Source: a virus
Length of the DNA stretch: 64,000 nt
Strand: one strand, 5' to 3'
Virus record (IMG/VR): IMGVR_UViG_3300031548_000002
Span: 1-64,000 of that record
The notes below the pieces were generated by a model. That model was not told the origin of the DNA. It saw nothing but the letters and a program-made list of their open reading frames with translations, and searched no databases. A program made the position numbers and the translations under genes. Shown one piece after another: positions 2,728 to 55,142 of the stretch (its first letter is position 1; each line of letters starts with the position of its first letter).

Positions 2728-2838
2728 GTGTGTCCGAGGGTAACGGCGATCGGCCGCTCACTCCGTCACCTTTCGCGATCTGTCGTGGCGTCCCACGTGA
2801 GTCGCTCCGCCGCTCGGACCAGACGGCGTCGTCTAAAT

Positions 2839-2949: not shown

Positions 2950-2969
2950 GATCACTCCTCTCTGTGACG

Positions 2970-3043
2970 TAGCTCCGGGGAGATTCGAACTCCCAACCTC
3001 TTGATCCTAAGTCAAGCGCCTCTGCCAGTTGGGCCACGGAGCC
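2970..3043 (-). tRNA. tRNA-Leu(UAG), short variable loop
   Basis: GGCTCCG/CGGAGCT acceptor, Leu-type 3-bp D-stem, CTTGA-CTTAGGA-TCAAG anticodon arm, GGGAG-TTCGAAT-CTCCC T-arm, A73. Confidence 0.88.
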
Positions 3044-3126
3044 TAGGTGGGTGGTGGCGCTGATCGACCCGACATCGCGTCGGACGGAGCACGGCGTGAG
3101 CGCCGTCCGACGGCGCCACCACCTCG

Positions 3127-3206
3127 CTGCCTCGGCGGGTTGCGAACCCGCGCCTCCGAACCCGGAGCGACCGGGTCCGGCGCTCTGCCCACTGAGCTAC
3201 GAGGCA
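3127..3206 (-). ncRNA. tRNA-like RNA with a 10-bp extended anticodon stem and 5-nt loop
   Basis: TGCCTCG/CGAGGCA acceptor; GCTC/GAGC D-arm; CCGGACCCGG-TCGCT-CCGGGTTCGG; GCGGG-TTCGCAA-CCCGC T-arm. Confidence 0.7.
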
Positions 3207-40370: not shown

Positions 40371-41156
40371 GTGGGAATCTTCAACCGAGGCCTGTTCGCG
40401 GGTGACATGTACAAGACCATGGACCCGGTGCGCGCCAGTGACGGCAGCAAGTCCGCCGCCATGATGACGAGCACGTTCATGAGCAAGGCGCCGACGCTCG
40501 TCGAGTCGTTCCGCACCGCGGGCGTCTTGCTCGAGAAGAAGGGCGGCCTGGGACTGCGAGCCGCCGTGTACCTCGTCGTCGATCGCTCCGGCTCGATGAG
40601 CGGCTACTTCCGTGACGGCTCGGTCCAGGCGTTCGCGGACCGCATCCTCGCGGCCGCCGCGCAGTTCGATGACGACGGCGTCGTGCCGACCGTGTTCTTC
40701 GGCTCACGCGCTCACCCCACCAAGGACATCGTCCTGGGCCAGCACGCCGGCCGCGTCGCGCAGCTTCACCAGGAGTTCGGCAGCATGGGCTCGACGAACT
40801 ACGCCGACGCCATGGAGACGGTGATCCGGCACTACCGCGGGACGAACCCGCGGGTGCCCGCCCTGGTGTTCTTCCAGACCGACGGCGCGCCGGACAACCA
40901 GTCCGCCGCGGAGGAAATCATCGTCAGGTCGTCGAAGCTGCCGATCTTCTGGCAGTTCGTCGGCTTCGGCCACGACCGGTTCGCGTTCCTCAACCGGCTG
41001 GACACGCTGACGAACCGCACGGTCGACAACGCGGGCTTCTTGGCCGCGGGCTTCGACCCGGCCGCGCTGTCCGACTCGGAGCTGTACGACAAGCTGCTCA
41101 ACGAGTACCCCTCGTGGGTCCGGTCCGCGCAGAACGTCGGCATCGTCGCGCGCTAG
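40371..41156 (+). CDS. vWA domain protein (vWA-TerF-like)
   Basis: MIDAS DRSGSM, GSTNYA, FQTDG, PIFWQFVGFG, DNAGF. Confidence 0.85.
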   Translation: MGIFNRGLFAGDMYKTMDPVRASDGSKSAAMMTSTFMSKAPTLVESFRTAGVLLEKKGGLGLRAAVYLVVDRSGSMSGYFRDGSVQAFADRILAAAAQFDDDGVVPTVFFGSRAHPTKDIVLGQHAGRVAQLHQEFGSMGSTNYADAMETVIRHYRGTNPRVPALVFFQTDGAPDNQSAAEEIIVRSSKLPIFWQFVGFGHDRFAFLNRLDTLTNRTVDNAGFLAAGFDPAALSDSELYDKLLNEYPSWVRSAQNVGIVAR

Positions 41157-41393: not shown

Positions 41394-41741
41394 GTGGAGA
41401 GCACCGTGGACGACACACTGACGATCGTGGCATTCGACCCACTACGACCGATCTTCCTACTCATCATGATCAGCCTGGTGACGTACCGTGTCACGCGACT
41501 GATCGCGGCTGACGCGTTCCCACTGATCGCGACGCCGCGCGAGTGGATCATCGGCAAGCTGGGAGAGGACCACTGGTTCTCGTACTTGATCACATGCATG
41601 TGGTGCGCGTCGATGTACGTCGCGGCGGGCGTGGTCGCCGTGTTCGACCGCTACACAGCGGTGCCGTGGCCCTACGCGATGGTCTTCGTTGCGTCGGCGA
41701 TCACCGGCACCATCGCGATGCACGAGCCGGAGGTTGACTGA
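41394..41741 (+). CDS. DUF1360-like membrane protein (possible holin)
   Basis: YRVTRLI..D...YLITCMWCASMY; TM helices. Confidence 0.7.
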   Translation: MESTVDDTLTIVAFDPLRPIFLLIMISLVTYRVTRLIAADAFPLIATPREWIIGKLGEDHWFSYLITCMWCASMYVAAGVVAVFDRYTAVPWPYAMVFVASAITGTIAMHEPEVD

Positions 41742-42325
41742 TGGAGTGGCGACTGTTCGAAGAGGGCACGACGCCGTACGTCAGCACCGCCGAGTTTCAC
41801 CGGGACCGCGAGCGCGCGCCGCACCTGGAGCAGGCGCACCACCGGGCGCGCATGGAGCTCGCGCTGGAGTGCGTGCGCGCCGCCGAGAACTGGTACGCCA
41901 AGCCGACGCTGTGCGACCTCGGCGCGGGCGACGGTGGGTTCCTGACGCTGGTCGCGCCGTACGTAAGTCGCGCGTGGGGCTACGACCTCTGTCCCGCGAA
42001 CGTCGCGGGTGCGGCGGAGCGCGGAGTGAACGTCGAGCTGCGCGACTTCACCGCGGAGAAGCCCGAGCTGGGCACGGTGGTGACGACGCTGGAGGTCTTG
42101 GAGCACGTCGCCCGCCCGCACGCGCTGGTGAAGGCGCTGTGGCAGGCGGGCGTCCGGGTGCTGATCGCATCATCACCGGTGGATGAGACGGAGGCATCTC
42201 ACGACGCGGTTCACGCGTGGGCGTGGGACATGGACGGCTACCGCGCGCTCGTTGAGAGTGGCGGTTGGACCGTCGTACGGCACGAGACGGCCGGTCGGTA
42301 CCAGGTGGTACTCGCTCGCAGGTAG
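41741..42325 (+). CDS. class I SAM-dependent methyltransferase
   Basis: CDLGAGDGG, GYD, LEVLEH. Confidence 0.85.
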   Translation: MEWRLFEEGTTPYVSTAEFHRDRERAPHLEQAHHRARMELALECVRAAENWYAKPTLCDLGAGDGGFLTLVAPYVSRAWGYDLCPANVAGAAERGVNVELRDFTAEKPELGTVVTTLEVLEHVARPHALVKALWQAGVRVLIASSPVDETEASHDAVHAWAWDMDGYRALVESGGWTVVRHETAGRYQVVLARR

Positions 42326-42333
42326 GAGTAGCG

Positions 42334-43998
42334 GTGGGTTGGCGGAGAACCTCATCGGCGCGACCGCGCGCACGCGTGATGCGCGGTGACCGCGAGAGTA
42401 CGGCGCTCGCGGTCGTCGAGAGCCCCGCGCTGTCGCGCCGCGAGCACCGCGCGTTGCAGCGCGCCGCTAAGAAGAACGCGAAGAAGGAGTCGCTGACCGC
42501 GGCTGCCGCGATCATGCGGTCGGACACGCGCGGCACCGTCATCCAGAAGAAACGCTGGCAGGATGAGGCGTGGGACAACTGGCGTGGTAACGGTGAGCTC
42601 TGGTACGCGACCGAGTGGAAGGGCAACGCGGTCTCACGCGTGCGGTTGAAGGCCGCGAAGATCGTGCCCGGCTCGGATGAGCCGGAGATCGTGGACGACG
42701 GTCCGGCGGCGGAGCTTATGGAGCAGCTCGCTGGTGGCATCGGCGGCCAGTCCGTGCTCATGAAGAGCTTCTCGATCAAGCTCGACATCGCGGGCGACTC
42801 GTATTTCATCATGTACGTGGATGAAGAGGGAGTTACGCACAGCGGGGTGTACTCCGCGGACGTCGTGCGCAAGGACACCAGCGGTGGTTTCTCACTTCAG
42901 CTGGATGAGTCCGGGCCAGTGCCGCTGCCGCGCGAGTCGCTGGTCGTCCGCATCTGGAACCCCGACGAGCAGTACCCGTGGCTGGCCATCTCGCCGACCG
43001 AGCCCGCGCTCAGCGTGCTGCGCGAGGTCGACCTCTACAACCGAAAGATCATCACCGAGCTGACGGCGCGCATCGCCAGCAACGGCGTGTGGCTGATTCC
43101 CGATGAGGTGACGTTCCCCGTCCGCGACGAGTTCTCGGACGCGCCGGACCCGTTCATCTCCGAGTGGATCGACGTCGCATCGAAGGCGATCCAGAACCCG
43201 GGAAGTGCCGCGGCCGCACTGCCGATTCCGATGCGCGTGCCCGCGGACTTCATCGACAAGTTCGAGCACGTCCGCTTCTCGGACAACGTCGTCAAGGAGA
43301 CGTTGGACGGTCGCGACCGCGCGCTGAGCCGACTCGCGAAGATGCTCAACGTTCCGGCTGAAGTTTTGACTGGCATGGGAGACGTGAACCATTGGGGGTC
43401 TTGGAAGATCGAAGACTCCGCGATCAAGATTCACGTGCTTCCCACGGTAGAAACGATTTGTCGTGGTCTCACGGTGGGGTACCTGCAGCCCGCCCTCTCC
43501 AATCAGAGCCTCGAAGAGTTCGACGATAATGACGTCGCGGATGACGCGAATGGCGAGCAGGCGCAATACGTCGTCTGGTATGATGCGTCCGAGCTGGAGA
43601 AGCAGCCCGACCTCGGCGAGCGCGCCGTCCAGCTCCACGACCGCGTCGCGATCTCTGACGAGGCACTGCGCCGCGCGACCGGCTTCGATGACTCCGACGC
43701 GCCGACCGACGAAGAGCGCAACGCGCAGATCCTGAAGAAGCTCGCGTACAGTGGCCAGCAGGTCACCAACGCGTACGAGGAGCTCACCGGAACTCCGGTG
43801 GCCGGCGTCGGGGACGAGGAATCCACGACCTCGCCCGAAGCGAACCTCCCCGCACCGGCGCCGGCCGCCGGGCCTGCGCCCACGGTGGTAAGACCACCGA
43901 GCACGCGCACCGAAGTACCGTCCGGTGAAAGTGGCGGACCTCCGGGCGCGAGCGTCGACACCACCTTCCTCGAGATCGTTGAGAGGACGCGCACGTGA
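42334..43998 (+). CDS. portal protein
   Basis: WQDEAW, SRVRL, RIWNP, GMGDVNHW, WYDASEL; sits upstream of MuF, protease and capsid genes. Confidence 0.85.
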   Translation: MGWRRTSSARPRARVMRGDRESTALAVVESPALSRREHRALQRAAKKNAKKESLTAAAAIMRSDTRGTVIQKKRWQDEAWDNWRGNGELWYATEWKGNAVSRVRLKAAKIVPGSDEPEIVDDGPAAELMEQLAGGIGGQSVLMKSFSIKLDIAGDSYFIMYVDEEGVTHSGVYSADVVRKDTSGGFSLQLDESGPVPLPRESLVVRIWNPDEQYPWLAISPTEPALSVLREVDLYNRKIITELTARIASNGVWLIPDEVTFPVRDEFSDAPDPFISEWIDVASKAIQNPGSAAAALPIPMRVPADFIDKFEHVRFSDNVVKETLDGRDRALSRLAKMLNVPAEVLTGMGDVNHWGSWKIEDSAIKIHVLPTVETICRGLTVGYLQPALSNQSLEEFDDNDVADDANGEQAQYVVWYDASELEKQPDLGERAVQLHDRVAISDEALRRATGFDDSDAPTDEERNAQILKKLAYSGQQVTNAYEELTGTPVAGVGDEESTTSPEANLPAPAPAAGPAPTVVRPPSTRTEVPSGESGGPPGASVDTTFLEIVERTRT

Positions 43999-46151
43999 CG
44001 CGCATCACGATGGTCTCCGAGGCTGAGCTGCAAGCTGCCGCCGACGCGCTCGCCACGGACATGGTCGAGACGCTGCGTGCGGTTCTACGGCGCGCGGGCC
44101 AGGCGCTGGGCCAGACTATCACGGCGGCCGCCGAGCGGCCCGAGCGGGTCGTTCTAGACCAAGCTGAGACGGCCTGGCTGGACGCCGTCAACGGCGACTT
44201 CTTTCCGCGCGTTGTGAACGCCTACGTCTCCGCCGCAGAGCGCGCTCACCTGCAGCTCGTCGACGTCTATGGCGGCGCGCCGGCCGCCGTGCCATTCGTG
44301 AGCCAGTCGGCGGCGGTCGCGTACCTCACGGACTCCGGCAACCGCATGATGAACGTCACGGAGGGCACGTGGGCGCGCGCTCGAGCGCAGCTCATTGAGG
44401 GTTTTCAGGCGGGCGAGTCGATCCAGCAGCTGACCGCTCGCCTGCAGTCGGTGAGCGACTGGAGCGAGTCGCGCGCCGCGACCGTGGCCCGCACTGAGAT
44501 CATCTCCGCGTCCAACGCGGGCGCGCTGGCCGAGGTGCAGGCGACCGGTGCGATCGCGAAGAAGACGTGGCTCGCCACCAAGGATTCGCGCACGCGTGAG
44601 GCGCACCGTAAGGCTGACGGCCAGACGGTTAGCGTCAACAACGTGTTCATCGTGGACGGTGAGGCGCTGGACTTCCCGGGCGACCCGCAGGGTGAGCCGG
44701 AAAATGTGATCAACTGCAGATGTACTTTGTCACTTGACGTCAAAAAGTCGGAGCTGTCCGTCGCGCTGGAAGACCTGCCCGACGTCACCGACGAGTTCGA
44801 CCCAGCGGACTTCGTCGACCTGGACTCGCTGGTCGCGGCGGCGTCGCGCATTGAGCTCGCGCCGCGTAAGAAGTACGACGAGTCGAAGCACAAGCGCGGT
44901 AAGGGTGGACGCTTCGCACCTAAGTCTGGCGGTGGCGGCGGTAAGATCGACTATAAGAAGAAGACCGCCAAGAAGGCGCCCGAGCCGGAGCCCGCCGAAC
45001 CGGCGAAGAAGATCAGCTACAAGAAGACCACCGCTAAGAAGACGGCCGCGCCTCCGACGCCGCCGCCCGCGCCGACTCCGCCGCCCGCTAAGAAGGCCGC
45101 ACCGGCGAAGACGACCGGCAAGAAGATCGCGCCCACCCCGCCTCCGCCGCCGGTCAAAGAACCGCCCGCGCCGGAGATCGAAGAGCTGCCCACACCGGAG
45201 CCGGCTGCACCCGGCGGCATCGAGCCGAGCGCGCCGATCGTGCAGGTGACGCCCGAGGTGCGGGACGCGCTGGACCTGTCGGAGGGCGACTTCGCGGAGA
45301 CGGGTAGCCGTGTGCTGGTCGGCGACCGTGCCGGAACGGTGCGCCACTCGACGACCAACGACGCGGATCTCAGTGATGAGCTCTGGGTGCAGTTCGACGA
45401 TGACCCGACGCGCGTCCAGCGCATGGCCGCGACGGACGCTGAGGTGATCGACGCGGCGGATGACGACTACGCGGACATCACGCGGTCGCCCTTCCCAGCG
45501 GACGTCGTCGAGAACCTGCCCGCGGGCGCGCCGTTGGGCGATGAGGACGAGAATGAAGCTGACGAGGACGCGGGCGACGACGGTGCGGAGCTGCCGTTCG
45601 CGGTCACGCCCGGCTTCGAGCCTCTCACCGAGTCGGATGCCAACGACATGCAGGACGAGATGCTGGCGCGCGAGCCCTGGTCCGTGGCGCAGGAGGAAGC
45701 ACTCACCGTGTACAGCGGCGACGCGTACACAGAGATGAACGGCTGCCTGCGGTTCGATGAGGGCTGCACGGATGACATCGAGTTCGACAACCGGCAGGCG
45801 TCCGCGGCGATGCGTCCCACGACGCGCGCGACGACGGTCACGCGCGGCGCGAACTTCCAGTCGCTGGGCATCAACAACGCGGCACAGCTGGAGTCGCTGG
45901 TCGGCGCCACGGTGAGTGACCACGGCTTCACCAGCACATCGATCGATCCGAACTCCGCGTTCGCCGGCGACGTCCGGCTGCAGATCGAGGTGCCCGAGGG
46001 TGCGCGCGCCGCGTACATCGACCAGATCAGCCAGAACGCGGGCGAGCGTGAGCTGCTGCTCGACAGAGGCACGCGCTTCGAGGTGCTGGAAGTCCAGATG
46101 CCTGCGGAAGAAGGCATGCCCGCCGCGGTGCGAGTGAGGGTGGTTGTGTAA
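43995..46151 (+). CDS. MuF-like minor head protein fused to a VIP2-like ADP-ribosyltransferase (ART1)
   Basis: MuF motifs ARTE, KTWLAT.DSRTREAH, PGDP, INCRC; ART motifs VTRG, GFTSTS, ERELLL. Confidence 0.9.
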   Translation: MTRITMVSEAELQAAADALATDMVETLRAVLRRAGQALGQTITAAAERPERVVLDQAETAWLDAVNGDFFPRVVNAYVSAAERAHLQLVDVYGGAPAAVPFVSQSAAVAYLTDSGNRMMNVTEGTWARARAQLIEGFQAGESIQQLTARLQSVSDWSESRAATVARTEIISASNAGALAEVQATGAIAKKTWLATKDSRTREAHRKADGQTVSVNNVFIVDGEALDFPGDPQGEPENVINCRCTLSLDVKKSELSVALEDLPDVTDEFDPADFVDLDSLVAAASRIELAPRKKYDESKHKRGKGGRFAPKSGGGGGKIDYKKKTAKKAPEPEPAEPAKKISYKKTTAKKTAAPPTPPPAPTPPPAKKAAPAKTTGKKIAPTPPPPPVKEPPAPEIEELPTPEPAAPGGIEPSAPIVQVTPEVRDALDLSEGDFAETGSRVLVGDRAGTVRHSTTNDADLSDELWVQFDDDPTRVQRMAATDAEVIDAADDDYADITRSPFPADVVENLPAGAPLGDEDENEADEDAGDDGAELPFAVTPGFEPLTESDANDMQDEMLAREPWSVAQEEALTVYSGDAYTEMNGCLRFDEGCTDDIEFDNRQASAAMRPTTRATTVTRGANFQSLGINNAAQLESLVGATVSDHGFTSTSIDPNSAFAGDVRLQIEVPEGARAAYIDQISQNAGERELLLDRGTRFEVLEVQMPAEEGMPAAVRVRVVV

Positions 46152-49100
46152 TGGCCAACGGCGAAAAGCTCACGCCGCTGACGGACCCGAGCAACGTCCA
46201 GTGGGTCATCGAGCGCCCGGGTGATGCTGCCGCGACGACGGCTGCGGTCACGCCGCGCCCGAAGATGGCCGCATACTCCGCGCTGGTTGCGGCGACCGCG
46301 GTCAGCCTCAAGAAGAAGTTCGACGAGTCCAAGGTCAAGCGTGGGCCCGGTGGCAAGTTCGCGAAGAAGGCTGGCGGGGGATCGTCGGCGCCCGCGCCCG
46401 CAAAGAAGACCTCCGCGGCGCCGATCGCGTCCGGTAAGAAGATCACCAACAAGGTCATCTACGGGAAGCACGCCAACGGCTCGATCATCCAGTCCACCGA
46501 CGGCCAGCACCGCATGGTCTACAATGCGGCGGGCAACAACTGGACGGTCCAGCGGCGCACGTCCGACGGCGGCTGGGAGGTCGTCGAGGTCCTCGGCAAG
46601 GGCGCCGCGTATAAGAAGGCGAACGCGCTCAGCTCTTCGTGGGGTGAGCTGCGCGCGGACGATGATGAGGAGCCTGACGTCGCGACCGCGGCGACTGTGG
46701 ATGCGGATGCCGGTGACGCCCCTGACGCAGGCACGACAACGAGTAATGCCTCCGCGGGACACGGCGCATTCGCGGACGGCTGGAACGACCTGTCGGCGTC
46801 ACCACTGTCGGCGTATCAGATGGCGAGTCTGCACATCGAGTCGGCATTCTCCAATGAAGATGCTCTGAATGCGGGTCTCGCCGCGCAGCACGTCGCCAAT
46901 TTGGCGAACAAGTACGGCGTCACGCCTGAGCAGGCGCTGGCCATCATCGACCATGAACGCGGCGACAGCGTGTACTCGGATCGCGTTCGCGCTCACCTCG
47001 CGGGCCAGCCATTTCCGCCGTCCACCCTGACCGTACCTCCGGGAACGCCGTTGGGCTCGGCGAAGAAAATCGCCGCGAAGAAGACTGCGGCGAAGAAGGT
47101 GGCGCCGCCCGCGGTCGCGCCGTCGCCGGCACCGGCGAAAAAGGCCGCTAAGAAGATTGCGTACACAAATCCCATGGCGTCCGCACTCGCGGGCGAGGAT
47201 GTGCCTCTCGCGCAGCTGGAGGCGCAGCAGGCCGCATCACAACAGATTCGAGATGCTCTTCACAACTACAACAATGCATTGGCGGATCCCTCACTGACCG
47301 TCACGGACACGAGTAGCTACGCGTCCATCTTGTCGATTCTTAAGAAGCAGTATAAGAATAAGTACGGTGTGGCGTGGTCGCCGTCACATCACGCTGCGGT
47401 CGTCGGGACGTACCAGAAGCAGCTCGCTAAGAGTGGACCCGCCGTAGCTCCAACGTCGGAACCGGCGACGCCCGCTCCGACGAAGAAGCCCGCGAAGTCG
47501 AAGACGTTCGCGAAGGGTGACTCGGTGATCGGACCGACCGGCGCGACGGGCGAGGTCGTCGCCGTTGCGGAGACCACCGGCACGAAGATCAAAATGTCGA
47601 AGGTGCAGTTTCCCGACGGTCAGGTGGGCTGGTTCAAGAACGACGAGCTCTCTGACGCCACGACGGCGTCCAGTCCCGCCGCGGCGGATCGCCTGGACGG
47701 CGCGCAGAAGGGCGTCATTCCGGGAGCTTACGTCTACACGCCAGGAGGTGACATCGCGACCGTCGTAGGCCAGGGGCCGCCTAACGCGTATGGTGATCCG
47801 CAGGTCACGTTCCAGACGGTGAGTGGATCAACGGGCACACTCGCCGCCGGGGACTTGCGACCACTTACGCAGTTTCAGATCGACTCGCTGACCAACGCGC
47901 CCGTCGACGGCGCGTACGTCAGCACTCCCATGGGTGACGGTTACGTCGTAGGTGCACCGTTCGCCAACGCGATCGGTAATCCATCGATCACCGTTGACGT
48001 CAACGGAACGCCCACGAAGTTCAACGTCAACGACGTGACGCCCGCGACGGCACCAACGCCTGCGCCCGCGGCTCCGGTGATCACGCCCGCGACGCCCGCC
48101 GCAGCTCCGGCACTGTCGTACGACGCCGACGGCGTTCCGATTCTTGACGACGCGCAGCAGGCAATGCTCCAGAGTCACTTCAAGGATGCGGGCGTCAACT
48201 GGTACAGCGACACAACGTCGATCTTTGACGCCGCGTACGCCGCGTCCCAGGCGACGGGCATGTCCATGGAGGATGTGCTCAAGTACGCCGATGCGAACTA
48301 CCACAGCTCGGCGAAGTTTGGCGGCAAGCCGTTTCAGGCCAAGGTTGAGAAGTGGGCGAAGTCTTCTAAGGGCAAGGCTCACGTTCAGGCGACGCTGGGC
48401 ACCGCGCCGACCGGGGCGACGCCGACGTCGCTGGTGCCGGTTCGCACACCACCCGTTCCGACGCCGCAGCCGCCGCCCGCGCCCGCGAACATCACCGCGA
48501 CCAACTACGGTTCGACGAGTCAGCCTCACGGTGACTTCTTTCCACTTTCCAGCGGTTACACCACGTTGGATCCCGATGAAGCGCTCGAGCTGCAGCGTGA
48601 GATGGAAGCACAATCGGGTGCACTTGATCCGCGGGAAAGTAGCGCACTCACATACTATACCAGCGAGTCTTACCGTGAAATGAACAACTGCTTGCGGCGT
48701 GGTGAAGACTGTAACGCGGGTGTGATGTATCATAACGGCACGCGCTACACGTCGTACCAGACCAGCGAGTACGCGACGCAGGGAATGCGACCACTTACGC
48801 AGAACGTCACCCTGTACCGCGGCACGAACATCGAGTTCGCGCCGGACCTCAACCTGACGAGCGCGCACGACCTCGAGAATCACGTCGGATACATGGCACA
48901 GGACTTCGCTTTTTCCAGCGCATCGGTGAACCCTACCACCGCGCACAGCTGGGGTGCGGGCCAGTACAACGCGGTGATCATGCAGATCGAGGTACCCGCC
49001 GGCTACCCCGCCACGTACGTCGACCACATTTCCGATAACCCGGGCGAGTATGAAATGGTGCTGCCGCCGGGAACGCGCTACCGCATTGTGGAAGTTAAGC

Positions 49101-49153
49101 CGTCGCGCAGCATTTCGGACGGCGTCATTGTTCGAGTGGAGGTCATTCCGTGA
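46151..49153 (+). CDS. multidomain protein with C-terminal ADP-ribosyltransferase (ART2)
   Basis: LYRG, FSSAS, EYEMVLPPG; YREMNNCLR. Confidence 0.88.
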   Translation: MANGEKLTPLTDPSNVQWVIERPGDAAATTAAVTPRPKMAAYSALVAATAVSLKKKFDESKVKRGPGGKFAKKAGGGSSAPAPAKKTSAAPIASGKKITNKVIYGKHANGSIIQSTDGQHRMVYNAAGNNWTVQRRTSDGGWEVVEVLGKGAAYKKANALSSSWGELRADDDEEPDVATAATVDADAGDAPDAGTTTSNASAGHGAFADGWNDLSASPLSAYQMASLHIESAFSNEDALNAGLAAQHVANLANKYGVTPEQALAIIDHERGDSVYSDRVRAHLAGQPFPPSTLTVPPGTPLGSAKKIAAKKTAAKKVAPPAVAPSPAPAKKAAKKIAYTNPMASALAGEDVPLAQLEAQQAASQQIRDALHNYNNALADPSLTVTDTSSYASILSILKKQYKNKYGVAWSPSHHAAVVGTYQKQLAKSGPAVAPTSEPATPAPTKKPAKSKTFAKGDSVIGPTGATGEVVAVAETTGTKIKMSKVQFPDGQVGWFKNDELSDATTASSPAAADRLDGAQKGVIPGAYVYTPGGDIATVVGQGPPNAYGDPQVTFQTVSGSTGTLAAGDLRPLTQFQIDSLTNAPVDGAYVSTPMGDGYVVGAPFANAIGNPSITVDVNGTPTKFNVNDVTPATAPTPAPAAPVITPATPAAAPALSYDADGVPILDDAQQAMLQSHFKDAGVNWYSDTTSIFDAAYAASQATGMSMEDVLKYADANYHSSAKFGGKPFQAKVEKWAKSSKGKAHVQATLGTAPTGATPTSLVPVRTPPVPTPQPPPAPANITATNYGSTSQPHGDFFPLSSGYTTLDPDEALELQREMEAQSGALDPRESSALTYYTSESYREMNNCLRRGEDCNAGVMYHNGTRYTSYQTSEYATQGMRPLTQNVTLYRGTNIEFAPDLNLTSAHDLENHVGYMAQDFAFSSASVNPTTAHSWGAGQYNAVIMQIEVPAGYPATYVDHISDNPGEYEMVLPPGTRYRIVEVKPSRSISDGVIVRVEVIP

Positions 49154-49599
49154 CGACACCTGCAAGCGGTGAGGTAGAAGAGCGTGGCCCGACGGTAAGC
49201 TCACTGGTGGACCCCACGTCCGTGGAGTGGGTGTCACTGGTGCCCGTCTCCGAAGAGAATCCGTTCGATGAGGGTGAGCTGGATGAGGACGGCCTGACCG
49301 AGTCCGAGTTCGACATGATCTTTCGGCGACCCGCGGCGAGCGTTCCGATCAACCTCATCGCCGCAGTGGACGTCACAGAGAGTCCGCGCGAAGAGCTGCA
49401 GTCAGGCATGCCACGGCAGCTGAAGGACTACTGGCTGCGCGGCGAGGGCGCGGCGCAGATTCGGTGGGGCACCAAGGGTTCGTTCACCCGCTGCGTCCGC
49501 GAGCTGCGCGAGCACTTCCCCACGGGGACCGAGGGCCTGTGCGCGAACCTCTACCACGAGGCAACGGGGCACTGGCCCGGTGAGGATCGTGACAAGTAG
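49150..49599 (+). CDS. head-module protein: acidic N-terminal peptide plus YW...IRWGT...C...GLCA domain
   Basis: GTGA coupling to ART2; LVDP peptide; LIAA site. Confidence 0.75.
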   Translation: MTTPASGEVEERGPTVSSLVDPTSVEWVSLVPVSEENPFDEGELDEDGLTESEFDMIFRRPAASVPINLIAAVDVTESPREELQSGMPRQLKDYWLRGEGAAQIRWGTKGSFTRCVRELREHFPTGTEGLCANLYHEATGHWPGEDRDK

Positions 49600-50948
49600 T
49601 GGAGACGCTCGCACCGCGTAGACGCTTCGATGAGTCGAAGGTCAAGCGCAACAAGGGACGCTTCGCGAGGAAGGCGGTGGGCGCGCTCTTTCGCCCGCCG
49701 CCCGCGCTGGTGCGCGGCACTCCGGAGGCCAACGTCTTTCGACGTCACAACGACGGCGACGTCACGCACGTGTCGGACGACGGCAGCCAGCGGATGGTCT
49801 ACGATGAGGTCACCGACCAGTTCGATCAGCAAGTGCGTCAGCCCGACGGCTCGTGGCAGTCGATCGGTAAGCGTGGTAAGCTTCAGGCGTACCTACTAAC
49901 AAAGCTCGGCTGGCGCGCAGGTGAACAGGAAGATCAGGACGCACCCGCGCTGGCCGTTGACGCGGTGGACGTCGATTCGCCGGACGTTAGTGCACCGGAT
50001 GCGAGTGCATCAGCGACACACTCTTCCATTGCGACGCCCGCGGACGACATCAGTGCACTGACGCCCGAGCAGATCCGTAACGCGTACAACGCGGTCAACG
50101 CCGCGGGCAGCGTGCTCAGCGACCCGTACACACCGCCGGAAGATCTCGCGCAAGTGGCGTCGAACGTCGCTGACGAGCAGTCGCTGACGCCGCTGCAGGT
50201 GCTGCGCGCCGTCGACGCGCACGAGGCATCTCTCTACGGTGATCCCAACACGAATCGCATTGAGAATCGCGTCGTTCAGCACCTAGCGGGTGCGGACTTT
50301 CCCGCACCGGGTGGTCCACTTACGACGGACGGGCCCGCACCGGCACCACTTCCCGCGACCGTGGTCGCGCTACCGCACCAAGATACCGCGCCATTTCCGA
50401 TAAGTGACGACTTCCCCACGCGAACCGACACTGATATGGCGCGCATTCAACGTGAGATGGAAGCGCAGAGCGGCGCGCGAACTCCCGCGGAGATCGCGGC
50501 GATTCGCGACTACTCCGTCACGGCGTACCAGGGCATGAATGAGTGCCTACGAACGGGAAGTGGCTGCGATCCCAATGTGATTGATCGCAATAATGAGCTT
50601 GAAAGTGCGATGCGTCCCATCACCGAACCGGTGACCGTCTTCCGACGCATGATGCTGGATAACCTACCAGGTGTGACGTCGGCCGCTGACCTGCAGTCGC
50701 TGGTCGGCTCAGACATCACAGACGCCGGGTTTACCAGTACGTCGCTGGACCCCGCGCAGACTCAATTGTTCGGCAACGTGCGACTTCAGATCGCGGTGCC
50801 TACCGGAACGAGGGCCACCGTTCCGGGCGCACACAGCGTACACTCTGGCGAGCAGGAGGTCATCTTGGCGCCCGGAACGCGTTATCGCGTCATCGACGTT
50901 GACACCTCGGGCACAACGCCCGCTGTGCAACTGGAGGTAGTGCTGTGA
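49599..50948 (+). CDS. ADP-ribosyltransferase (ART3)
   Basis: VFRR, GFTSTS, EQEVILAPG; YQGMNECLR. Confidence 0.88.
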   Translation: METLAPRRRFDESKVKRNKGRFARKAVGALFRPPPALVRGTPEANVFRRHNDGDVTHVSDDGSQRMVYDEVTDQFDQQVRQPDGSWQSIGKRGKLQAYLLTKLGWRAGEQEDQDAPALAVDAVDVDSPDVSAPDASASATHSSIATPADDISALTPEQIRNAYNAVNAAGSVLSDPYTPPEDLAQVASNVADEQSLTPLQVLRAVDAHEASLYGDPNTNRIENRVVQHLAGADFPAPGGPLTTDGPAPAPLPATVVALPHQDTAPFPISDDFPTRTDTDMARIQREMEAQSGARTPAEIAAIRDYSVTAYQGMNECLRTGSGCDPNVIDRNNELESAMRPITEPVTVFRRMMLDNLPGVTSAADLQSLVGSDITDAGFTSTSLDPAQTQLFGNVRLQIAVPTGTRATVPGAHSVHSGEQEVILAPGTRYRVIDVDTSGTTPAVQLEVVL

Positions 50949-53164
50949 CCACGCCCATCGATGTGAACACTAGTGAGTTCACGCCACTCACTGACCCGAA
51001 CAATGCAGTGATGACGATTATCCCCACCGAAGATGAGGTCATTGAGGAGATCACCGAAGATGAGCTCGCCGCAGTTGGTGACACCTTCACCAGTGGCATG
51101 ATCGCTCTCATTCCTACTGCTGCCAATGCTGAACGTCTCTACGCGGGCGAAGATGATTTTGGCGAGTTGCCTGAGGACTTGCACACCACGGTGATCTACT
51201 TGGGCGACATCACAAGTATGGACGAGCGAACGTTTAGCACGATCGTGGACGAGCTCGTGAACATCGCCGATGAGGAGCTTGGGCCGGTCGTCGCGGAGGG
51301 GTTCAATGTCGCGCTCTTCAACCCACACACTGACGAGCGTGACACATGTGTGACGCTGGGTCTGAGCGGATCAACGCTTCACCTGCTCTGTAAGAAGATC
51401 CGCGACCGGATCATTAAGAAGATCGCCGGTGAGAGTTATCAGATTCCCGAGCAGCACGAGCCGTGGATTCCGCACGTGACGCTCGCGTACACCGAGGACT
51501 ACTCCACGGTGGAGCGCCTGGCAGACCGCACCGGCGACATCACATTTGATCGTGTGCGCTTGGCCCTGGGTGATGATGTCTACGACTTCGATCTCAGAGA
51601 CACGTTCAAGCCAGTGGATCTAGCTGACGTTGAGGACGACGCGGACTACGAAGAACTTAGCGACGGCGAACTCTTTGGTGAGCTCTTCGCGGGCGCGGCA
51701 GTGTCGGAGATCGACCGAGACTCCACGATGGAATATAATGATCGCGAAGGTGAGGTGATGAACGTGACCGACACGGTCGAAGAGGCCGCCGAGGTGGAGG
51801 TCTCCGAGTCCGAGCCCGGCGCGTGGTCCGGCGTCCTGATCGTCGAGGGCGTTGAGTCGGGCGACGGTCGCATGTTCGCGGAGGGCTCGCTCAAGTCCGC
51901 GCCACTGCCGCTGCCGCTGATGTGGCAGAAGCAGACCGCCACGGGGCACGAGACCGCCGTGCAGGCGGGTCGCATCGATGAGGTGTGGCGCGAGGGCAAC
52001 CAGATCTGGGGACGCGGAGTCTTCGACCTGGAGGGCGACGACGGCTACGAGGCGTACCGGCAGGTGGCGCAGGGCTTCCTGCGCGGCGTGTCCGGCGACG
52101 TCGACTCGGTGAAGGACTCTGACGTCGAGCTCGTCTTCCCGAAGTCCGGCGGTGCGGAGAGTGCGGAGGGAGCCGACGGCTTCGGCGACCTCTTCGCGGC
52201 GCCCGAGCTGACGATCTTTCACCGTGGCCGGCTGCGCGGCGCGACGCTCGTGCAGTTTCCCGCCTTCGTGGAGGCGTCCATCGCATTGGACGGTCAGACG
52301 CTCGACACGGACGAGACCGCGATCGAGGAGGGCCCGCACTCAGAGTTCGCCGATGACGACGCGACCGAGCTTGCGATCGAGAGCGCCGGTGAGTCGGTGG
52401 ACGCTGAGGACGAGGAGGAGATCGGTCACCTCGCTCGGCGCGCCGAGCTGACCGCCTGCGGCTGCACCGATGAGGCGCCGCCGACCGACTGGTTCGAGGA
52501 CCCGAAGCTGTCCGGACCGACGCCGCTCACCGTCACGGAGGACGGTCGGATCTTCGGCCACGCCGCCGTCTGGGGAACCTGCCACACCGGCTTCTCCGGC
52601 ACGTGCGTGACGCCGCCGCGCGAGCGACTCCACGAGTACTTCCTACTGGGCGAGACGCTCACCGCGGACGGATCCACCGTTGCCACGGGCTCCATCACAC
52701 TGGGAACGGGTCACGCGGCGACCGGCGGCAAGCTCACCGCACTGCAGGCGATCGATCACTACGACCACACCGGCACCGTCGTGGCGGACGTCGCGACGGG
52801 TGAGGATAAGCACGGCCTCTGGTTCTCCGGCGCGCTGCGGCCGAAGCTGTCGCCGTATAAGCTGCGCGCACTCCGCGCCGCGAAGCTGTCCGGCGACTGG
52901 CGCCGCTTCGGCAATGGGCTGCGCCTCATCGCGCTGCTGGCGGTCAACGTGCCGGGCTTCCCGGTGCCGCGCGTCAAGGCCGGCGCGCGCCGTGGGGTTC
53001 AGACGTCGCTGGTGGCCGCGGGCGTCAACCCGTACGGCCCGGGCGACCAGCAGAGCGCGGTCGAGCAGGAGGCGCTGCAGGCCATCGTGGCGAGCCTGAA
53101 GCAGCGCATCGGACGCGACGACAAGTCGCGGCTGGATGAGATCCGCAAGCGGATTGGGAGGTAG
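50945..53164 (+). CDS. 2H phosphoesterase fused to capsid maturation protease
   Basis: HxT motifs LHTTV and PHVTL; ESGDGR, PLPLMW, GH, GVSGD, PAF; C-terminal GHAAVW...LSGDWR...VNVPGF. Confidence 0.82.
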   Translation: MTTPIDVNTSEFTPLTDPNNAVMTIIPTEDEVIEEITEDELAAVGDTFTSGMIALIPTAANAERLYAGEDDFGELPEDLHTTVIYLGDITSMDERTFSTIVDELVNIADEELGPVVAEGFNVALFNPHTDERDTCVTLGLSGSTLHLLCKKIRDRIIKKIAGESYQIPEQHEPWIPHVTLAYTEDYSTVERLADRTGDITFDRVRLALGDDVYDFDLRDTFKPVDLADVEDDADYEELSDGELFGELFAGAAVSEIDRDSTMEYNDREGEVMNVTDTVEEAAEVEVSESEPGAWSGVLIVEGVESGDGRMFAEGSLKSAPLPLPLMWQKQTATGHETAVQAGRIDEVWREGNQIWGRGVFDLEGDDGYEAYRQVAQGFLRGVSGDVDSVKDSDVELVFPKSGGAESAEGADGFGDLFAAPELTIFHRGRLRGATLVQFPAFVEASIALDGQTLDTDETAIEEGPHSEFADDDATELAIESAGESVDAEDEEEIGHLARRAELTACGCTDEAPPTDWFEDPKLSGPTPLTVTEDGRIFGHAAVWGTCHTGFSGTCVTPPRERLHEYFLLGETLTADGSTVATGSITLGTGHAATGGKLTALQAIDHYDHTGTVVADVATGEDKHGLWFSGALRPKLSPYKLRALRAAKLSGDWRRFGNGLRLIALLAVNVPGFPVPRVKAGARRGVQTSLVAAGVNPYGPGDQQSAVEQEALQAIVASLKQRIGRDDKSRLDEIRKRIGR

Positions 53165-53340: not shown

Positions 53341-53423
53341 CTACTTCACGGTGATTTGCCGAGATCAACACCGTGGTGTACAATGCGCGTAAGGTTCATC
53401 AACGTGAAGCAAGAGGAAGCCGC

Positions 53424-55142
53424 ATGAATGGGTATCAGGGTCTGCCGGAGGACCTCTCCGCGCTGAGCGATGATGAGCTTCGCGCGCTGGAGGAGGCTGC
53501 GGTCGCGGCCTTCGACGAGGCCGCCGACCCGGAGAACGACGTCTCGGCCGAGGTAGTCGCGCAGGCCGCGCAGCTCGCCGACGACATCGACGCCATCCGC
53601 GCCGAGATCGCCTCGCGCGAAGAGATGGCACTGCAGCACGCCGCCGACCGTGAGGCGCTGCAGTCGCGCGTGCACGGCCGGGGCGAGGCACCGACCGAGG
53701 CCGCCGAGGAGACCACGCAGGAACTGGCCACGGAGCTCGCCGTGGAGGAAGGCGAGGAAGTGGACGAAGACGAAGTCGTCGCGGGTGGGCAGCACTACAG
53801 CCCGGCGCGGACGACGCCCCGCAACGCGACCGGGAAGCGCAAGCTCAACGTCTCGCTGTCGGCGATCCAGGCGCGCGCGCCGAAGGTTGAGGTTCCCAAC
53901 ACCCCGTTGCGTTCGACGCTGGTCGCGTCCGCGGACATCCCGGGTTACGCCCAGGGCTCCCGGCTCGACTCGATGTACGACCTGGTTTCTGCGGCGCACA
54001 ACCGTGTGCGCACCGTCGGCACCACGACGCGCGGTGATGACGCCCCGCGGTACACCGTCGCGTCGATGAACCGCAGCTTCAAGTACACGCTCGACCGGCA
54101 GGCCACACCGCAGCAGATCTCCGAGGTCCTGACCGCCGCGACCAACGTCAGCGAGCTCGTCGCCGCCGGCGGCTGGTGCGCCCCGTCCGAGATCTCGTAC
54201 GACCTCTTCAACATCGTCTGCGAAGACGGCATGCTGGACCTGCCGACCGTGGGCATCAACCGCGGTGGCATCCGCTTCCCGATCTCCCCGGACTTCTCCA
54301 GCCTCTCGGGCAACCCGGCCCTCTGGACCTGGACCGAGACGCAGGACATCGCCGCCGTCACCGGCACTGACCAGTCGGGCGTCAAGACCTGCGGTCGCGT
54401 CCCGTGCGCGACGTTCTCTGAGGAGCGCCTCGCGTGCGACGGCGTTTGCCTCACCGTCGGCAACCTCATGGACGACGCGTACCCGGAGCTCATTGCGAAC
54501 CACATGAAGCTCCTGATGGCCTTCCACGCGCACAAGATGAACTTGTCGCGCATCAATAAGCTGGTGGCCGCGTCCGTCGCGGTGTCCGGCACGGTGGGCA
54601 TGGGCGCCGTCGGCGAGTCCGTCATCAACAACGTCCTCGGGGCGCTGGAGCTGCAGGCTCGCGACTACCGCGAGAAGTTCGCGATGTGCGAGGATGCCGT
54701 CCTCGAGGTCGTGCTGCCGCGCTGGATCCTCGACATGATGCGGTCGGACATCCGTCGCCGCACCGGCGTCGAGCTGCTCTCGGTCGCGGACTCGTACATC
54801 GAGGGGCTCTTCGATGCCCTCGACATCCGCATCCAGTTCGTCGGCGACTGGCAGGTGCGCACCACGGGCTTCCCGGGCGGTACCGGAACGCTGCTGGCCT
54901 GGCCGACGCAGGTGCAGGCGCTGATGTTCGCGCCGGGCACCTTCGTTCTCGGCGAGGGTCTCACGCTGGACCTCGGCGTCATCCGCGACTCGGTGCTCAA
55001 CCAGACGAACGACTACACCGCGGCGTGGATGGAAGAGTGCTGGCTGATCGCCAAGCTCGGTCACGAGTCCCGTCTTCTCACGATCAACGTCTGCGCCAAC
55101 GGCCGGACCGGTGCCGCCGACATCACCGCCTGCGGTCTCTGA
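53424..55142 (+). CDS. major capsid protein with N-terminal scaffold-like coiled coil
   Basis: acidic helical N-terminus; LVAAGGWCAPSE, RGGIRF, DLGVIRDS..NQTND. Confidence 0.85.
   Translation: MNGYQGLPEDLSALSDDELRALEEAAVAAFDEAADPENDVSAEVVAQAAQLADDIDAIRAEIASREEMALQHAADREALQSRVHGRGEAPTEAAEETTQELATELAVEEGEEVDEDEVVAGGQHYSPARTTPRNATGKRKLNVSLSAIQARAPKVEVPNTPLRSTLVASADIPGYAQGSRLDSMYDLVSAAHNRVRTVGTTTRGDDAPRYTVASMNRSFKYTLDRQATPQQISEVLTAATNVSELVAAGGWCAPSEISYDLFNIVCEDGMLDLPTVGINRGGIRFPISPDFSSLSGNPALWTWTETQDIAAVTGTDQSGVKTCGRVPCATFSEERLACDGVCLTVGNLMDDAYPELIANHMKLLMAFHAHKMNLSRINKLVAASVAVSGTVGMGAVGESVINNVLGALELQARDYREKFAMCEDAVLEVVLPRWILDMMRSDIRRRTGVELLSVADSYIEGLFDALDIRIQFVGDWQVRTTGFPGGTGTLLAWPTQVQALMFAPGTFVLGEGLTLDLGVIRDSVLNQTNDYTAAWMEECWLIAKLGHESRLLTINVCANGRTGAADITACGL

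What the first reader, a model, noticed from the sequence alone, without database searches (positions are those of the whole stretch)
44850..49680. Shared [FY]DESKxKR..G[RK]FA tag on all three ART proteins: candidate capsid-targeting signal
Seen: LAPRKKYDESKHKRGKGGRFAPK (ART1, internal, just after DSLVAAA), LKKKFDESKVKRGPGGKFAKK (ART2, just after SALVAA) and LAPRRRFDESKVKRNKGRFARK (ART3, at its N-terminus). Cleavage at LVAA would put the tag near the N-terminus of every mature effector. I did not see it in other proteins in the window. Inference: a packaging or ejection address analogous to the T4 capsid-targeting sequence.
Basis: partly seen in the sequence, partly recalled or inferred. Interest (0 to 1): 0.75.

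Follow-up and report, generated by a model that had tools for sequence, protein, structure and literature searches.

The report
Shared head-cargo tag on three phage ADP-ribosyltransferases
All three ADP-ribosyltransferase enzymes of this 91-kb phage carry the same short peptide at what is probably their mature front end; it is a local variant of a widespread peptide that I found described nowhere and that marks proteins carried in phage heads, though what it binds is still unknown.

Summary
[FY]DESKxKR..G[RK]F occurs three times in six frames of the whole 91,363-bp phage genome, and the genome has three ART domains, one per tagged protein.

It is a Lys-rich variant of a widespread peptide, [WF]DESKHPRD..G[RK]F. 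A profile of 20 tags finds 1,447 protein clusters at E<=0.001. Some giant proteins carry up to 17 copies, each heading a module of about 280 aa.

Carriers are head-module proteins: MuF, portal and protease fusions, ARTs and other enzymes.

In ART1 and ART2 the tag lies 8-11 aa after L-x-A-[AS]. That motif also stands at the capsid protein's scaffold-domain boundary and near the protease's C-terminus, so cutting there is plausible but untested.

AlphaFold models the tag as disordered.

My reading, at 0.5 confidence: the tag is a retained N-terminal handle that ties cargo non-covalently to a head component for carriage and injection. It differs from the T4 capsid-targeting sequence because it lies after the cut, not before it. 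The binding partner is unknown.

Six literature searches found no description. Earlier notes of this scan report the same tag family in other phages.

The parts
42265..43998 (+). Portal protein gene, start of the head module
   Evidence: phrog_776 portal, E 5.8e-106
43995..46151 (+). ART1: MuF domain (aa 131-245), acidic DVTDEFDPADFVDL segment, LVAA, tag, about 100-aa Pro/Ala/Lys linker, small beta domain, ART domain (aa 562-702)
   Evidence: Pfam Phage_Mu_F 1.6e-20 and ADPrib_exo_Tox 8.6e-20. AF2 model: MuF and ART folded, residues 285-305 and 307-407 (i.e. 285-407 bar residue 306) below pLDDT 50.
44829..44840 (+). LVAA, predicted prohead-protease cut site in ART1 (aa 279-282)
   Evidence: L279 is invariant and A281/A282 nearly invariant in 17 MuF::ART homologues. 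The same motif stands at the MCP and protease sites.
44874..44924 (+). Tag 1: YDESKHKRGKGGRFAPK
   Evidence: HMM 43.5 bits. E296, R301, G305, F307, A308 and K310 invariant in 17 homologues.
46151..49153 (+). ART2: N-terminal leader, LVAA, tag, several unassigned domains, ART domain (aa 825-985)
   Evidence: Pfam ADPrib_exo_Tox 1.7e-17; ART match at 48620-49105
46178..46198 (+). Leader motif LTDPSNV near the ART2 N-terminus (second shared tag)
   Evidence: 3 matches in six frames of the whole genome, all N-terminal; conserved in homologues
46283..46294 (+). LVAA, predicted cut site in ART2 (aa 45-48)
   Evidence: conserved as L[VI]A[AS] in ART2-type homologues
46319..46369 (+). Tag 2: FDESKVKRGPGGKFAKK
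   Evidence: HMM 39.5 bits
49150..49599 (+). 149-aa protein with an SLVDPTSV leader, an LIAA site (49354-49365) and a C-terminal YWLRGEGA domain. It has no FDESK tag.
   Evidence: phrog_6439, E 9.3e-25. The same domain follows MuF plus tag in P0270-72 and P0275 and sits at the protease C-terminus in Gordonia phage Clown.
49599..50948 (+). ART3: tag at the N-terminus, small beta domain (aa 40-110), helical domain, ART domain (aa 295-436)
   Evidence: Pfam 8.5e-16. AF2: residues 1-30 at pLDDT 43-49, the rest folded. Foldseek matches C3-type ARTs, E 2.5e-12.
49626..49673 (+). Tag 3: FDESKVKRNKGRFARK, 9 aa after the start codon
   Evidence: HMM 35.5 bits. R9, E12, K14, K16, R17, K19, G20, R21, F22, A23 and K25 invariant in 16 homologues.
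50945..53164 (+). 2H phosphoesterase fused to the prohead protease. Leader LTDPNNA at 50987-51007 and LVAA at 53009-53020. No FDESK tag.
   Evidence: phrog_18402 head maturation protease 1.3e-70, phrog_2659 RNA ligase 3.3e-26; Pfam 2_5_RNA_ligase2 4.5e-4
53373..55142 (+). Major capsid protein with an acidic N-terminal scaffold-like domain of about 185 aa, ending STLVAS|ADIPGY (LVAS at 53919-53930)
   Evidence: phrog_777, E 1e-139. LVAS is kept in L001. tblastn matches to other actinophage capsid proteins begin at aa 143-162.

Best explanation
The three tags are the local, Lys-rich form (H/V-K-R instead of H-P-R) of a widespread phage peptide, [WF]-D-E-x-K-H-P-R-x3-G-[RK]-F, that heads cargo modules of head-associated proteins.

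Proposed steps in this phage (only the sequences are observed; every step below is inferred):
1. ART1 enters the procapsid as a MuF fusion, ART2 through an N-terminal TPLTDP-type leader, and ART3 through the tag alone.
2. The prohead protease (C-terminal half of 50945-53164) cuts after L-x-A-[AS]. The same motif stands at the capsid protein's scaffold-domain boundary.
3. The cut frees the ART1 and ART2 modules with the tag 8-11 aa from the new N-terminus. That matches the 9 aa in ART3.
4. The tag is a disordered linear motif that stays on the mature enzyme. It holds cut-free or free-standing cargo non-covalently to a conserved head component, so the cargo is kept in the head and leaves with the DNA.
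5. The likeliest partner is MuF or the portal, because cargo elsewhere is covalently fused to those two domains.

In short, the tag replaces a covalent link to the portal/MuF complex. The enzymes are intact R-S-ExE ADP-ribosyltransferases that presumably modify host proteins on entry.
For: One-to-one match: 3 tags, 3 ART domains, none elsewhere in the genome. The same three positions carry the tag in relative L001.

Breadth:
- 1,447 clusters at E<=0.001 and 180 at E<=1e-10 among 1.84 billion representatives.
- 518 tags were anchored in 146 top proteins. Median spacing is 281 aa. Only 3 of 146 proteins have fewer than 60 aa after the last tag. The first tag lies within 30 aa of the start in 44 of 146. 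Tags therefore head modules.

Head association:
- Of the 112 hits to the tag profile, 70 carry PF03496 ART, 18 MuF, 4 a portal domain and 1 DUF2213.
- The only hit in 185,579 bacterial genomes lies in a prophage head module: terminase, Mu portal, 2H-tag-Mu protease, capsid.
- Tags sit in the same chain as XkdF-type proteases in P0128 and P0146.
- The matches in all 14 named phage records found lie under ART (4), portal (3), HI1409-family (1) or hypothetical (6) genes.
- Orimi01 gp4 is portal-tag-ART.

Link to cutting:
- 29 of 67 internal tags have L[VTILA]A[AS] within 16 aa upstream, against 1.5% of random windows in the same proteins.
- The motif also stands at the MCP and protease sites.
- A protease gene or domain is present in 6 of 6 genomes or loci with internal tags that I examined: the window, L001, L004, Orimi01, PhiXhv-5 and FP_Brigit.
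- 4 of 4 cultured phages with MuF- or portal-adjacent ARTs and no tag have no protease gene annotated in the stretch shown; three of them have an annotated scaffolding protein.
- Onyinye has a scaffold-based head, a separate MuF, and a free-standing ART with the tag at residue 7.

Free linear motif: pLDDT below 50 in both AF2 models, with no docking onto MuF or ART.

Protein-level selection: synonymous differences between the copies. The same peptide occurs in proteins whose composition suggests AT-rich and GC-rich hosts.
Against: - There is no direct evidence for packaging, cutting or ejection of any tagged protein.
- The binding partner is unidentified. Tags occur with at least four portal or protease family sets: actinophage type, Mu type, Phage_portal_3 with phrog_2229, and XkdF. 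A partner specific to one sequence family is therefore unlikely.
- MuF was not detected in the 14.6-kb locus L004.
- MuF-fused cargo should not need an address, yet it keeps the tag.
- The counts rest on related sequences, so they are not independent events.
- The sample linking tags to proteases is small (6, 4 and 1 genomes) and depends partly on depositors' annotation.
- Some L-x-A-A junctions (MuF::2H, MuF::protease, the MCP) have no tag, so the tag is not tied to every cut.
- The AF2 alignments were shallow (16 and 17 sequences).
Confidence: 0.5

Rival explanations
1. The tag is a docking or 'cut here' signal for the prohead protease. The protease binds the tag and cleaves just upstream. 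Free-standing tagged proteins ride into the procapsid on the protease.
For: Tags sit 2-11 aa after cut-like motifs. Internal tags co-occur with a protease in 6 of 6 genomes examined. Protease domains share a chain with tags. Untagged MuF::ART fusions occur in phages with no protease gene annotated in the stretch shown.
Against: The MCP scaffold-domain boundary and the MuF::2H and MuF::protease junctions have L-x-A-A without a tag. Of 114 tags, 47 lie within 25 aa of the N-terminus with nothing to cut. Onyinye has an N-terminal tag and a scaffolding protein, with no annotated protease. Several unrelated-looking protease families would all have to bind the same peptide.
Confidence: 0.15
2. The tag acts in the infected cell after injection. 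For example it binds a universally conserved host factor, or recruits chaperones to refold cargo that passed through the tail unfolded.
For: The tag stays on the mature protein. It is conserved across phages of very different hosts, which fits a universal partner. One tagged protein (P0026) carries a DnaJ module.
Against: It does not explain why covalent fusions in phages with no protease annotated in the stretch shown lack the tag, nor why the tag is always at the module head next to cut-like sites. No host factor motif was recognised.
Confidence: 0.12
3. The tag binds the packaged DNA, so cargo is condensed with the genome and dragged out with it, as with the T4 internal proteins.
For: The window's tags are strongly basic: net +4, +4 and +5 over 18 aa. 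In ART1 and ART2 they are followed by PAKK/KIDYKKP-type basic linkers.
Against: Across 518 tags of the wider family the mean net charge is -0.94 and the median -1, so basic charge is not the conserved property. The invariant residues are aromatic, acidic, His, Pro, Arg and Gly.
Confidence: 0.08
4. The tag has no signalling role. It is a boundary left by duplication or cassette exchange of ART modules, like the conserved junction motifs of polymorphic toxins.
For: The three ARTs are paralogues: 35-40% identity in the ART domain. Tags mark exchangeable modules.
Against: The flanks have diverged while the tag residues are invariant. The copies differ at synonymous sites. The same peptide is kept in 1,447 clusters, in front of unrelated domains.
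Confidence: 0.05

Closest known systems
Phage T4 capsid-targeting sequence (CTS) of the internal proteins and Alt
   Same: A short conserved peptide shared by otherwise diverse head-carried proteins. It loads them into the prohead and can carry foreign proteins (PMC3012670, passages read). T4 Alt is a packaged, injected ART (PMC5512222, passages read).
   Different: The T4 CTS is N-terminal, binds the scaffolding core and is removed by the prohead protease (the removal is recalled, not read here). This tag lies after the predicted cut, would stay on the mature protein, can repeat up to 17 times in one chain, and shows no sequence likeness to the T4 CTS. The window's TPLTDP-type leader is closer in layout to a CTS.
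MuF-fused polymorphic toxins (Jamet et al. 2017, PMC5576092; Bxa and Apk2, PMC11699363)
   Same: ART1 is a MuF N-terminal domain with a C-terminal toxin-type ART, encoded in the head module. MuF is thought to act as a capsid-targeting domain (PMC11699363, passages read).
   Different: Those papers describe no junction peptide or cut site. A word search of PMC5576092 gave 0 hits for motif, linker, cleavage and HPR. Here two further ARTs lack MuF and carry only the tag. No ADP-ribosylhydrolase or macro-domain immunity gene was found in the genome.
Phage-type polyvalent proteins (Iyer et al. 2017, PMC5512222)
   Same: Multi-module effector proteins encoded beside portal and MuF genes and predicted to be packaged and injected. 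The giant tag-bearing proteins (up to 7,334 aa) and the ART-PolyVal, 2H and HipA-like modules fit this class.
   Different: That paper proposes processing by a metallopeptidase (MPTase) domain. Passages found with the words linker, cleav, processed, 'peptide motif', 'short motif' and HPR do not mention this peptide. Its supplementary alignments could not be seen.
Encapsulin cargo-loading peptides
   Same: Short terminal peptides on diverse enzymes that load them non-covalently into an HK97-fold shell.
   Different: Different sequence, usually C-terminal, no proteolysis and no ejection. The binding site here is unknown.

Membership tests
HPR-type cargo-head tag (provisional family defined here by profile A3) | Match to [WF]-D-E-x-K-[HV]-[PK]-R-x(2,3)-G-[RK]-F | tested here: met
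   3 of 3 tags score 35.5-43.5 bits against the HMM of 20 diverse tags. The K variant is a minority form: HKR 25 and VKR 13 of 518, HPR 396 of 518.
HPR-type cargo-head tag (provisional family defined here by profile A3) | Stands at the N-terminus or at the head of a module, not at the end | tested here: met
   ART3 tag at residue 10. ART1 and ART2 tags precede 400-940 aa of cargo. Family-wide, 3 of 146 proteins have fewer than 60 aa after the last tag.
HPR-type cargo-head tag (provisional family defined here by profile A3) | Encoded in a phage head module | tested here: met
   The order is portal, MuF::ART, ART2, small protein, ART3, protease, MCP.
T4-type capsid-targeting sequence | N-terminal in the precursor and removed by the prohead protease | tested here: not met
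   The tag lies downstream of the predicted L-x-A-A cut in ART1 and ART2, and ART3 has no cut motif before it. The cutting itself is untested.
T4-type capsid-targeting sequence | Sufficient to load a foreign protein into the prohead | not testable with these tools
   Needs a reporter fusion in a cultured phage.
MuF polymorphic toxins | N-terminal MuF domain plus C-terminal toxin domain in a head module | tested here: met
   ART1 only: Phage_Mu_F 1.6e-20 and ADPrib_exo_Tox 8.6e-20. ART2 and ART3 have no MuF.
MuF polymorphic toxins | Cognate immunity gene next to the toxin | tested here: inconclusive
   No PF03747 or PF01661 match in the genome. The 149-aa gene after ART2 is a head-associated domain, not an evident immunity protein. 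Non-enzymatic immunity cannot be excluded.
R-S-ExE ADP-ribosyltransferases (PF03496, C3/VIP2 type) | Pfam match above the cut-off, with catalytic Arg, Ser-x-Ser and Glu-x-Glu | tested here: met
   58.3-71.3 bits against a cut-off of 23.4. The sequences show TRG/STS/ERE in ART1, YRG/SAS/EYE in ART2 and FRR/STS/EQE in ART3, and these residues are invariant in the homologues. The ART3 model matches C3bot, Certhrax and CDTa at E 1e-11 to 1e-12.
Phage-type polyvalent proteins | Two or more effector domains in one chain, with an MPTase for processing | tested here: not met
   Each window protein has one recognised effector domain and no MPTase. Wider tag carriers do fit the class.

The most novel reading that the evidence does not exclude
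The [WF]DExKHPR...G[RK]F peptide is a general, portable loading and ejection handle of tailed phages that have a portal and MuF. Any protein bearing it at a free N-terminus, whether made that way or exposed by the head protease, would be held at the portal/MuF complex and injected with the DNA. That would explain how hundreds of phage lineages swap enzyme cargo freely, and it would give a simple way to load chosen proteins into phage heads.
Probability: 0.3. Interest if true: 0.85.

Novelty: new variant of a known kind. Interest (0 to 1): 0.68.

Why it matters
Phages are known to inject enzymes with their DNA. Outside T4, the rules that decide which proteins get into the head and out again are largely unknown.

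A single peptide of about 17 residues heads ARTs, kinase-like, sigma-factor, DnaJ, peptidase and many unknown modules in more than a thousand protein clusters. It would be a common grammar for virion cargo.
- It would allow injected effectors, which are likely anti-defence or takeover factors, to be predicted from sequence.
- It is directly testable in cultured phages that carry it, such as Mycobacterium phage Onyinye and Pseudomonas phage Orimi01.

This window offers a clean natural comparison. One enzyme type is found in three entry formats: a MuF fusion, a leader, and the tag alone. All three converge on the same predicted mature N-terminus.

Tried and rejected
- Megablast of the head module against 50,697 phage records gave no match.
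- tblastn of the ART1 tag against named phages gave only E=4 matches to the DNA primase/polymerase of 13 Arthrobacter phages. On reading, this is a chance GKGGRF inside a folded domain, 2.3 bits against the tag HMM.
- Pfam and NCBIfam have no model that matches the tag, even at E<=10. Pfam does hold a different 25-aa junction repeat, DUF7211, which co-occurs with the tag.
- Could ART3 be a frameshift fusion to the upstream 149-aa gene? Rejected. Two stop codons lie in ART3's frame just upstream of its GTG.
- Gene conversion or DNA-level conservation of the tags: rejected, because the copies differ at synonymous sites.
- DNA binding as the conserved function: disfavoured, because canonical tags have a mean net charge of -0.94.
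- Docking of the tag onto MuF or ART in cis: not predicted, with pLDDT below 50. These are shallow alignments, so this is a weak negative.
- Literature: six searches, two of them for 12 literal motif strings, found no description.
  - Only passages of PMC5512222, PMC11699363, PMC3012670 and the bioRxiv preprint 10.64898/2026.04.10.717836 were read. In PMC5576092 a word search found nothing. Other papers were seen only as listings.
Alignments in the supplements of PMC5512222 or PMC5576092 might show the peptide.
- The phi24B preprint reports a 2,811-aa polyvalent protein in virions by proteomics, but no tag.
- One hit, P0021, joins the tag to a permease-like region on a 916-bp contig. I take it for an assembly or gene-call chimera and did not test that.


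Full report
WHAT IS THERE

The window is the first 64 kb of a single 91,363-bp virus record. It has 66% G+C, and CheckV estimates it as 100% complete. Its capsid protein finds only actinobacteriophages among named phages: Mycobacterium 496, Gordonia 198 and Microbacterium 131 of 877 records, all below 60% identity. The host is therefore probably an actinobacterium.

The finding lies in the head module, all on the + strand:
- portal (42265-43998)
- MuF::ART 'ART1' (43995-46151)
- 'ART2' (46151-49153)
- a 149-aa protein (49150-49599)
- 'ART3' (49599-50948)
- a 2H-phosphoesterase::prohead-protease fusion (50945-53164)
- the major capsid protein (53373-55142)
- then the tail genes

All three ARTs pass Pfam's cut-off for ADPrib_exo_Tox and show the R / S-x-S / E-x-E residues. 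The ART3 model matches C3-type enzymes.

CHECK OF THE OBSERVATION

The three peptides are present exactly as quoted.
- A regex finds 3 matches in six frames of the window and of the whole genome.
- An HMM of 20 diverse tags finds the same 3 at 35.5-43.5 bits and nothing else at E<=1.
- The genome holds exactly 3 ART domains, one per tagged protein.
- The DNA of the copies differs at synonymous positions.
- In 16 ART3 homologues the tag residues R9, E12, K14, K16, R17, K19, G20, R21, F22, A23 and K25 are invariant while the flanks vary.
- In 17 MuF::ART homologues E296, R301, G305, F307, A308 and K310 are invariant.
- A syntenic 92-kb relative (L001) has the tag at the same three places.

THE TAG IS A VARIANT OF A WIDESPREAD PEPTIDE

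A profile of the local tags, searched against 5.8 billion proteins, returned 112 proteins at E<=10, of which 91 were at E<=0.001. Of the 112:
- 70 carry ART (PF03496)
- 18 carry MuF
- 4 carry a portal domain
- 4 carry DUF7211
- 1 each carries DUF2213, DnaJ+LRAT, a 2H domain, and a probable chimera
- 31 have no Pfam domain

Reading the hits showed the canonical form, for example DFDKSKHPRAKDGKF.

A broader profile (A3, 20 tags) read against 1.84 billion cluster representatives gave 1,447 proteins at E<=0.001, 180 at E<=1e-10 and 7 at E<=1e-30. Giant proteins matched in up to 17 stretches.

In the 146 new proteins among the best 150 I anchored 518 of 526 tags:
- Consensus: [WF]DESKHPRD..G[RK]F[ATS].KGG
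- HPR in 396 of 518, HKR in 25, VKR in 13
- Median spacing 281 aa (quartiles 204-418)
- First tag within 30 aa of the start in 44 of 146 proteins
- Fewer than 60 aa after the last tag in only 3 of 146

So the tag heads modules. Modules seen behind it include C3-type ART, ART-PolyVal, a HipA-like kinase, sigma-70 regions 2 and 4, DnaJ, LRAT/NlpC, an ATLF-like metallopeptidase, and many unknowns. Pfam and NCBIfam have no model for the tag.

HEAD ASSOCIATION

- The one hit in 185,579 bacterial species genomes (Paractinoplanes toevensis) lies in a prophage head module. The order there is terminase, Mu-type portal, an 896-aa 2H-tag-...-Mu-protease protein, then capsid.
- P0128 and P0146 join three tags each to an XkdF-type protease (the three P0128 tags are printed).
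- A canonical tag used as a tblastn query found 14 named phage records. All matches lie under ART (4), portal (3), HI1409-family (1) or hypothetical (6) genes.
- By HMM, Mycobacterium phage Onyinye gp16 starts MALANHFDESKVKRDNDGKFAKK (36.2 bits).
- Pseudomonas phage Orimi01 gp4 is portal-tag-ART (18.7 bits).
- The portals of FP_Brigit (13.0 bits) and PhiXhv-5 (8.0 bits) carry a tag in a C-terminal extension.
- Gordonia phage Clown shares the capsid and protease types but has a cargo-less MuF, and it has no tag.

THE CUT SITE

L-x-A-[AS] stands 8-11 aa before the tag in ART1 and ART2. In the two nearest phages it is also found at these places:
- the end of the capsid protein's acidic N-terminal domain (STLVAS|ADIPGY in the window; SVLVAS|ADIPGF in L001)
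- near the protease's C-terminus (LVAAG in both)
- in the 149-aa protein (LIAA; LASA in L001)

Among the 112 profile hits, 114 regex tags were found in 102 proteins, and 47 of them start within the first 25 aa. Of the 67 internal tags, 29 have L[VTILA]A[AS] within 16 aa upstream, against 1.5% of random windows in the same proteins. The commonest gap is 2 aa, as in ...LTAAGD-FDESK. These proteins are related to each other, so the ratio overstates the number of independent events.

In other lineages the few residues before the tag differ but are constant within a protein, for example FSAD, TAAG, INFALP and VACGE.

WHEN THE TAG IS PRESENT AND WHEN IT IS NOT

- A protease gene or domain is present in 6 of 6 genomes or loci with internal tags: the window, L001, L004, Orimi01, PhiXhv-5 and FP_Brigit.
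- Four of 4 cultured phages whose ART is fused to or follows MuF or the portal, but has no tag, show no annotated protease in the stretch fetched. Percival, TurboVicky and PaMx28 have scaffolding proteins annotated; Xp12 is mostly unannotated.
- Onyinye has a scaffolding protein (Pfam Phage_scaffold, 1.9e-16), a separate MuF, and a free-standing ART with an N-terminal tag.
- Within the MuF family of this phage:
  - the MuF::ART proteins printed have L-x-A/S-[AS] plus the tag (L279 invariant, A281/A282 nearly so, in the 17 aligned);
  - MuF proteins of about 400 aa have the tag followed by the YWLRGEGA domain, which the window encodes separately;
  - MuF::2H and MuF::protease fusions have L-x-A-A but no tag.

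So the tag is not needed at every cut, and it is not tied to ARTs.

STRUCTURE

AlphaFold2 leaves the tag below pLDDT 50 in both contexts. That covers ART3 residues 1-30 and ART1 residues 285-305, which are followed by a linker (residues 307-407) that is also below 50. The flanking domains fold well, and no docking onto MuF or ART is suggested. The alignments had only 16 and 17 rows.

MECHANISM

The simplest account of all the patterns is that the tag replaces a covalent link.
- Where cargo stays fused to MuF or the portal, no tag is needed.
- Where a protease cuts it free, or where it is made as a separate protein, an N-terminal tag ties it non-covalently to a head component. It is then kept in the head and leaves with the DNA.
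- MuF or the portal are the likeliest partners, because these are the domains to which cargo is otherwise fused. This is inference only.

Points against: the partner is unknown, tags occur with several portal and protease families, and MuF was not found in L004.

Rivals, with my odds:
- a docking signal for the protease (0.15)
- a function in the host after injection (0.12)
- DNA binding (0.08; the window's tags are +4 to +5, but the family mean is -0.94)
- a mere cassette boundary (0.05)

COMPARISON WITH WHAT IS KNOWN

The T4 CTS is the closest idea: a conserved peptide on diverse internal proteins that loads them, and foreign proteins, into the prohead (PMC3012670). This tag differs in that it stands after the cut and would be retained.

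MuF toxins (PMC5576092, PMC11699363) and polyvalent proteins (PMC5512222) cover the protein classes. In the text I could search, they do not cover this peptide.

Six searches of the paper library found no description. Supplements were closed.

Earlier notes of this scan report the same tag family in other phages and reach a similar reading. I treat them as agreement, not as evidence.

VERDICT

This is a new variant of a known kind of system, namely peptide-addressed virion cargo. It is widespread and can be tested in cultured phages.

Noticed in passing
window 46178-46198, 49204-49224, 50987-51007: A second shared motif, L[TV]DP[STN][NS][VA] (TPLTDPSNVQWV / SSLVDPTSVEWV / TPLTDPNNAVMT), stands at the N-termini of ART2, the 149-aa protein and the 2H::protease. 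It occurs 3 times in six frames of the genome, and each of these genes directly follows an ART gene. In ART2 and the 149-aa protein it is followed by an L-x-A-A site (LVAA, LIAA); the 2H::protease has only DELAAVG at that place, its one LVAA lying near the C-terminus. It is conserved in L001 and in ten ART2-type or shorter ART homologues. In layout it looks like a removable propeptide of the T4-CTS kind.
   Followed up: partly
window 49150-49599: The C-terminal domain of the 149-aa protein (MPRQLKDYWLRGEGA..., phrog_6439) appears in three other settings. It forms the C-terminus of the protease in Gordonia phage Clown. It follows MuF plus tag in MuF proteins of about 400 aa (P0270-72, P0275). 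It also lies inside large head fusion families. It is a conserved head-associated domain of unknown role.
   Followed up: partly
window 50945-53164: A 2H phosphoesterase ('RNA ligase'-like) domain is fused N-terminally to the prohead protease. Relatives have MuF::2H fusions or a separate 2H gene. These modules never carry the FDESK tag.
   Followed up: partly
window about 44925-45215 (ART1 aa 311-407) and ART2 aa about 305-335: Strongly basic Pro/Ala/Lys low-complexity linkers (KIDYKKK..., PAKK/AKKA repeats) follow the tags. They resemble histone-H1-like or HU-tail DNA-binding repeats (a recalled likeness). AF2 models them as disordered.
   Followed up: no
window 53373-53930: The capsid protein has a very acidic, helical N-terminal domain of about 185 aa that looks like a built-in scaffold. 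No separate scaffolding gene is seen in the module.
   Followed up: no
window 57257-58945: The head-tail adaptor gene encodes 562 aa, but only aa 304-551 match the adaptor family. The N-terminal 300 aa are unassigned.
   Followed up: no
window 40371-41156 and 41741-42325: Just upstream of the portal lie a vWA-TerF-like protein (Pfam 4.8e-63) and a methyltransferase-like ORF.
   Followed up: no
window 2655-3206, minus strand: Three tRNA genes: Leu-TAA, Leu-TAG and Thr-GGT.
   Followed up: no
proteins P0031, P0093, P0096, P0102 (not in the window): Another short repeated junction motif, H[YF]G[IV]KGMRWG (Pfam DUF7211, 25 aa), occurs in the same large proteins as the tag. P0031 and P0093, the two that I scanned, each match it in 3 stretches.
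   Followed up: no
protein P0124 (not in the window): A module with sigma-70 regions 2 and 4 lies between two tags in a 2,256-aa protein. This may be a virion-carried sigma factor.
   Followed up: no
proteins P0273, P0274, P0276 (not in the window): Close MuF homologues carry an intein (PF14890) inserted in the MuF domain.
   Followed up: no
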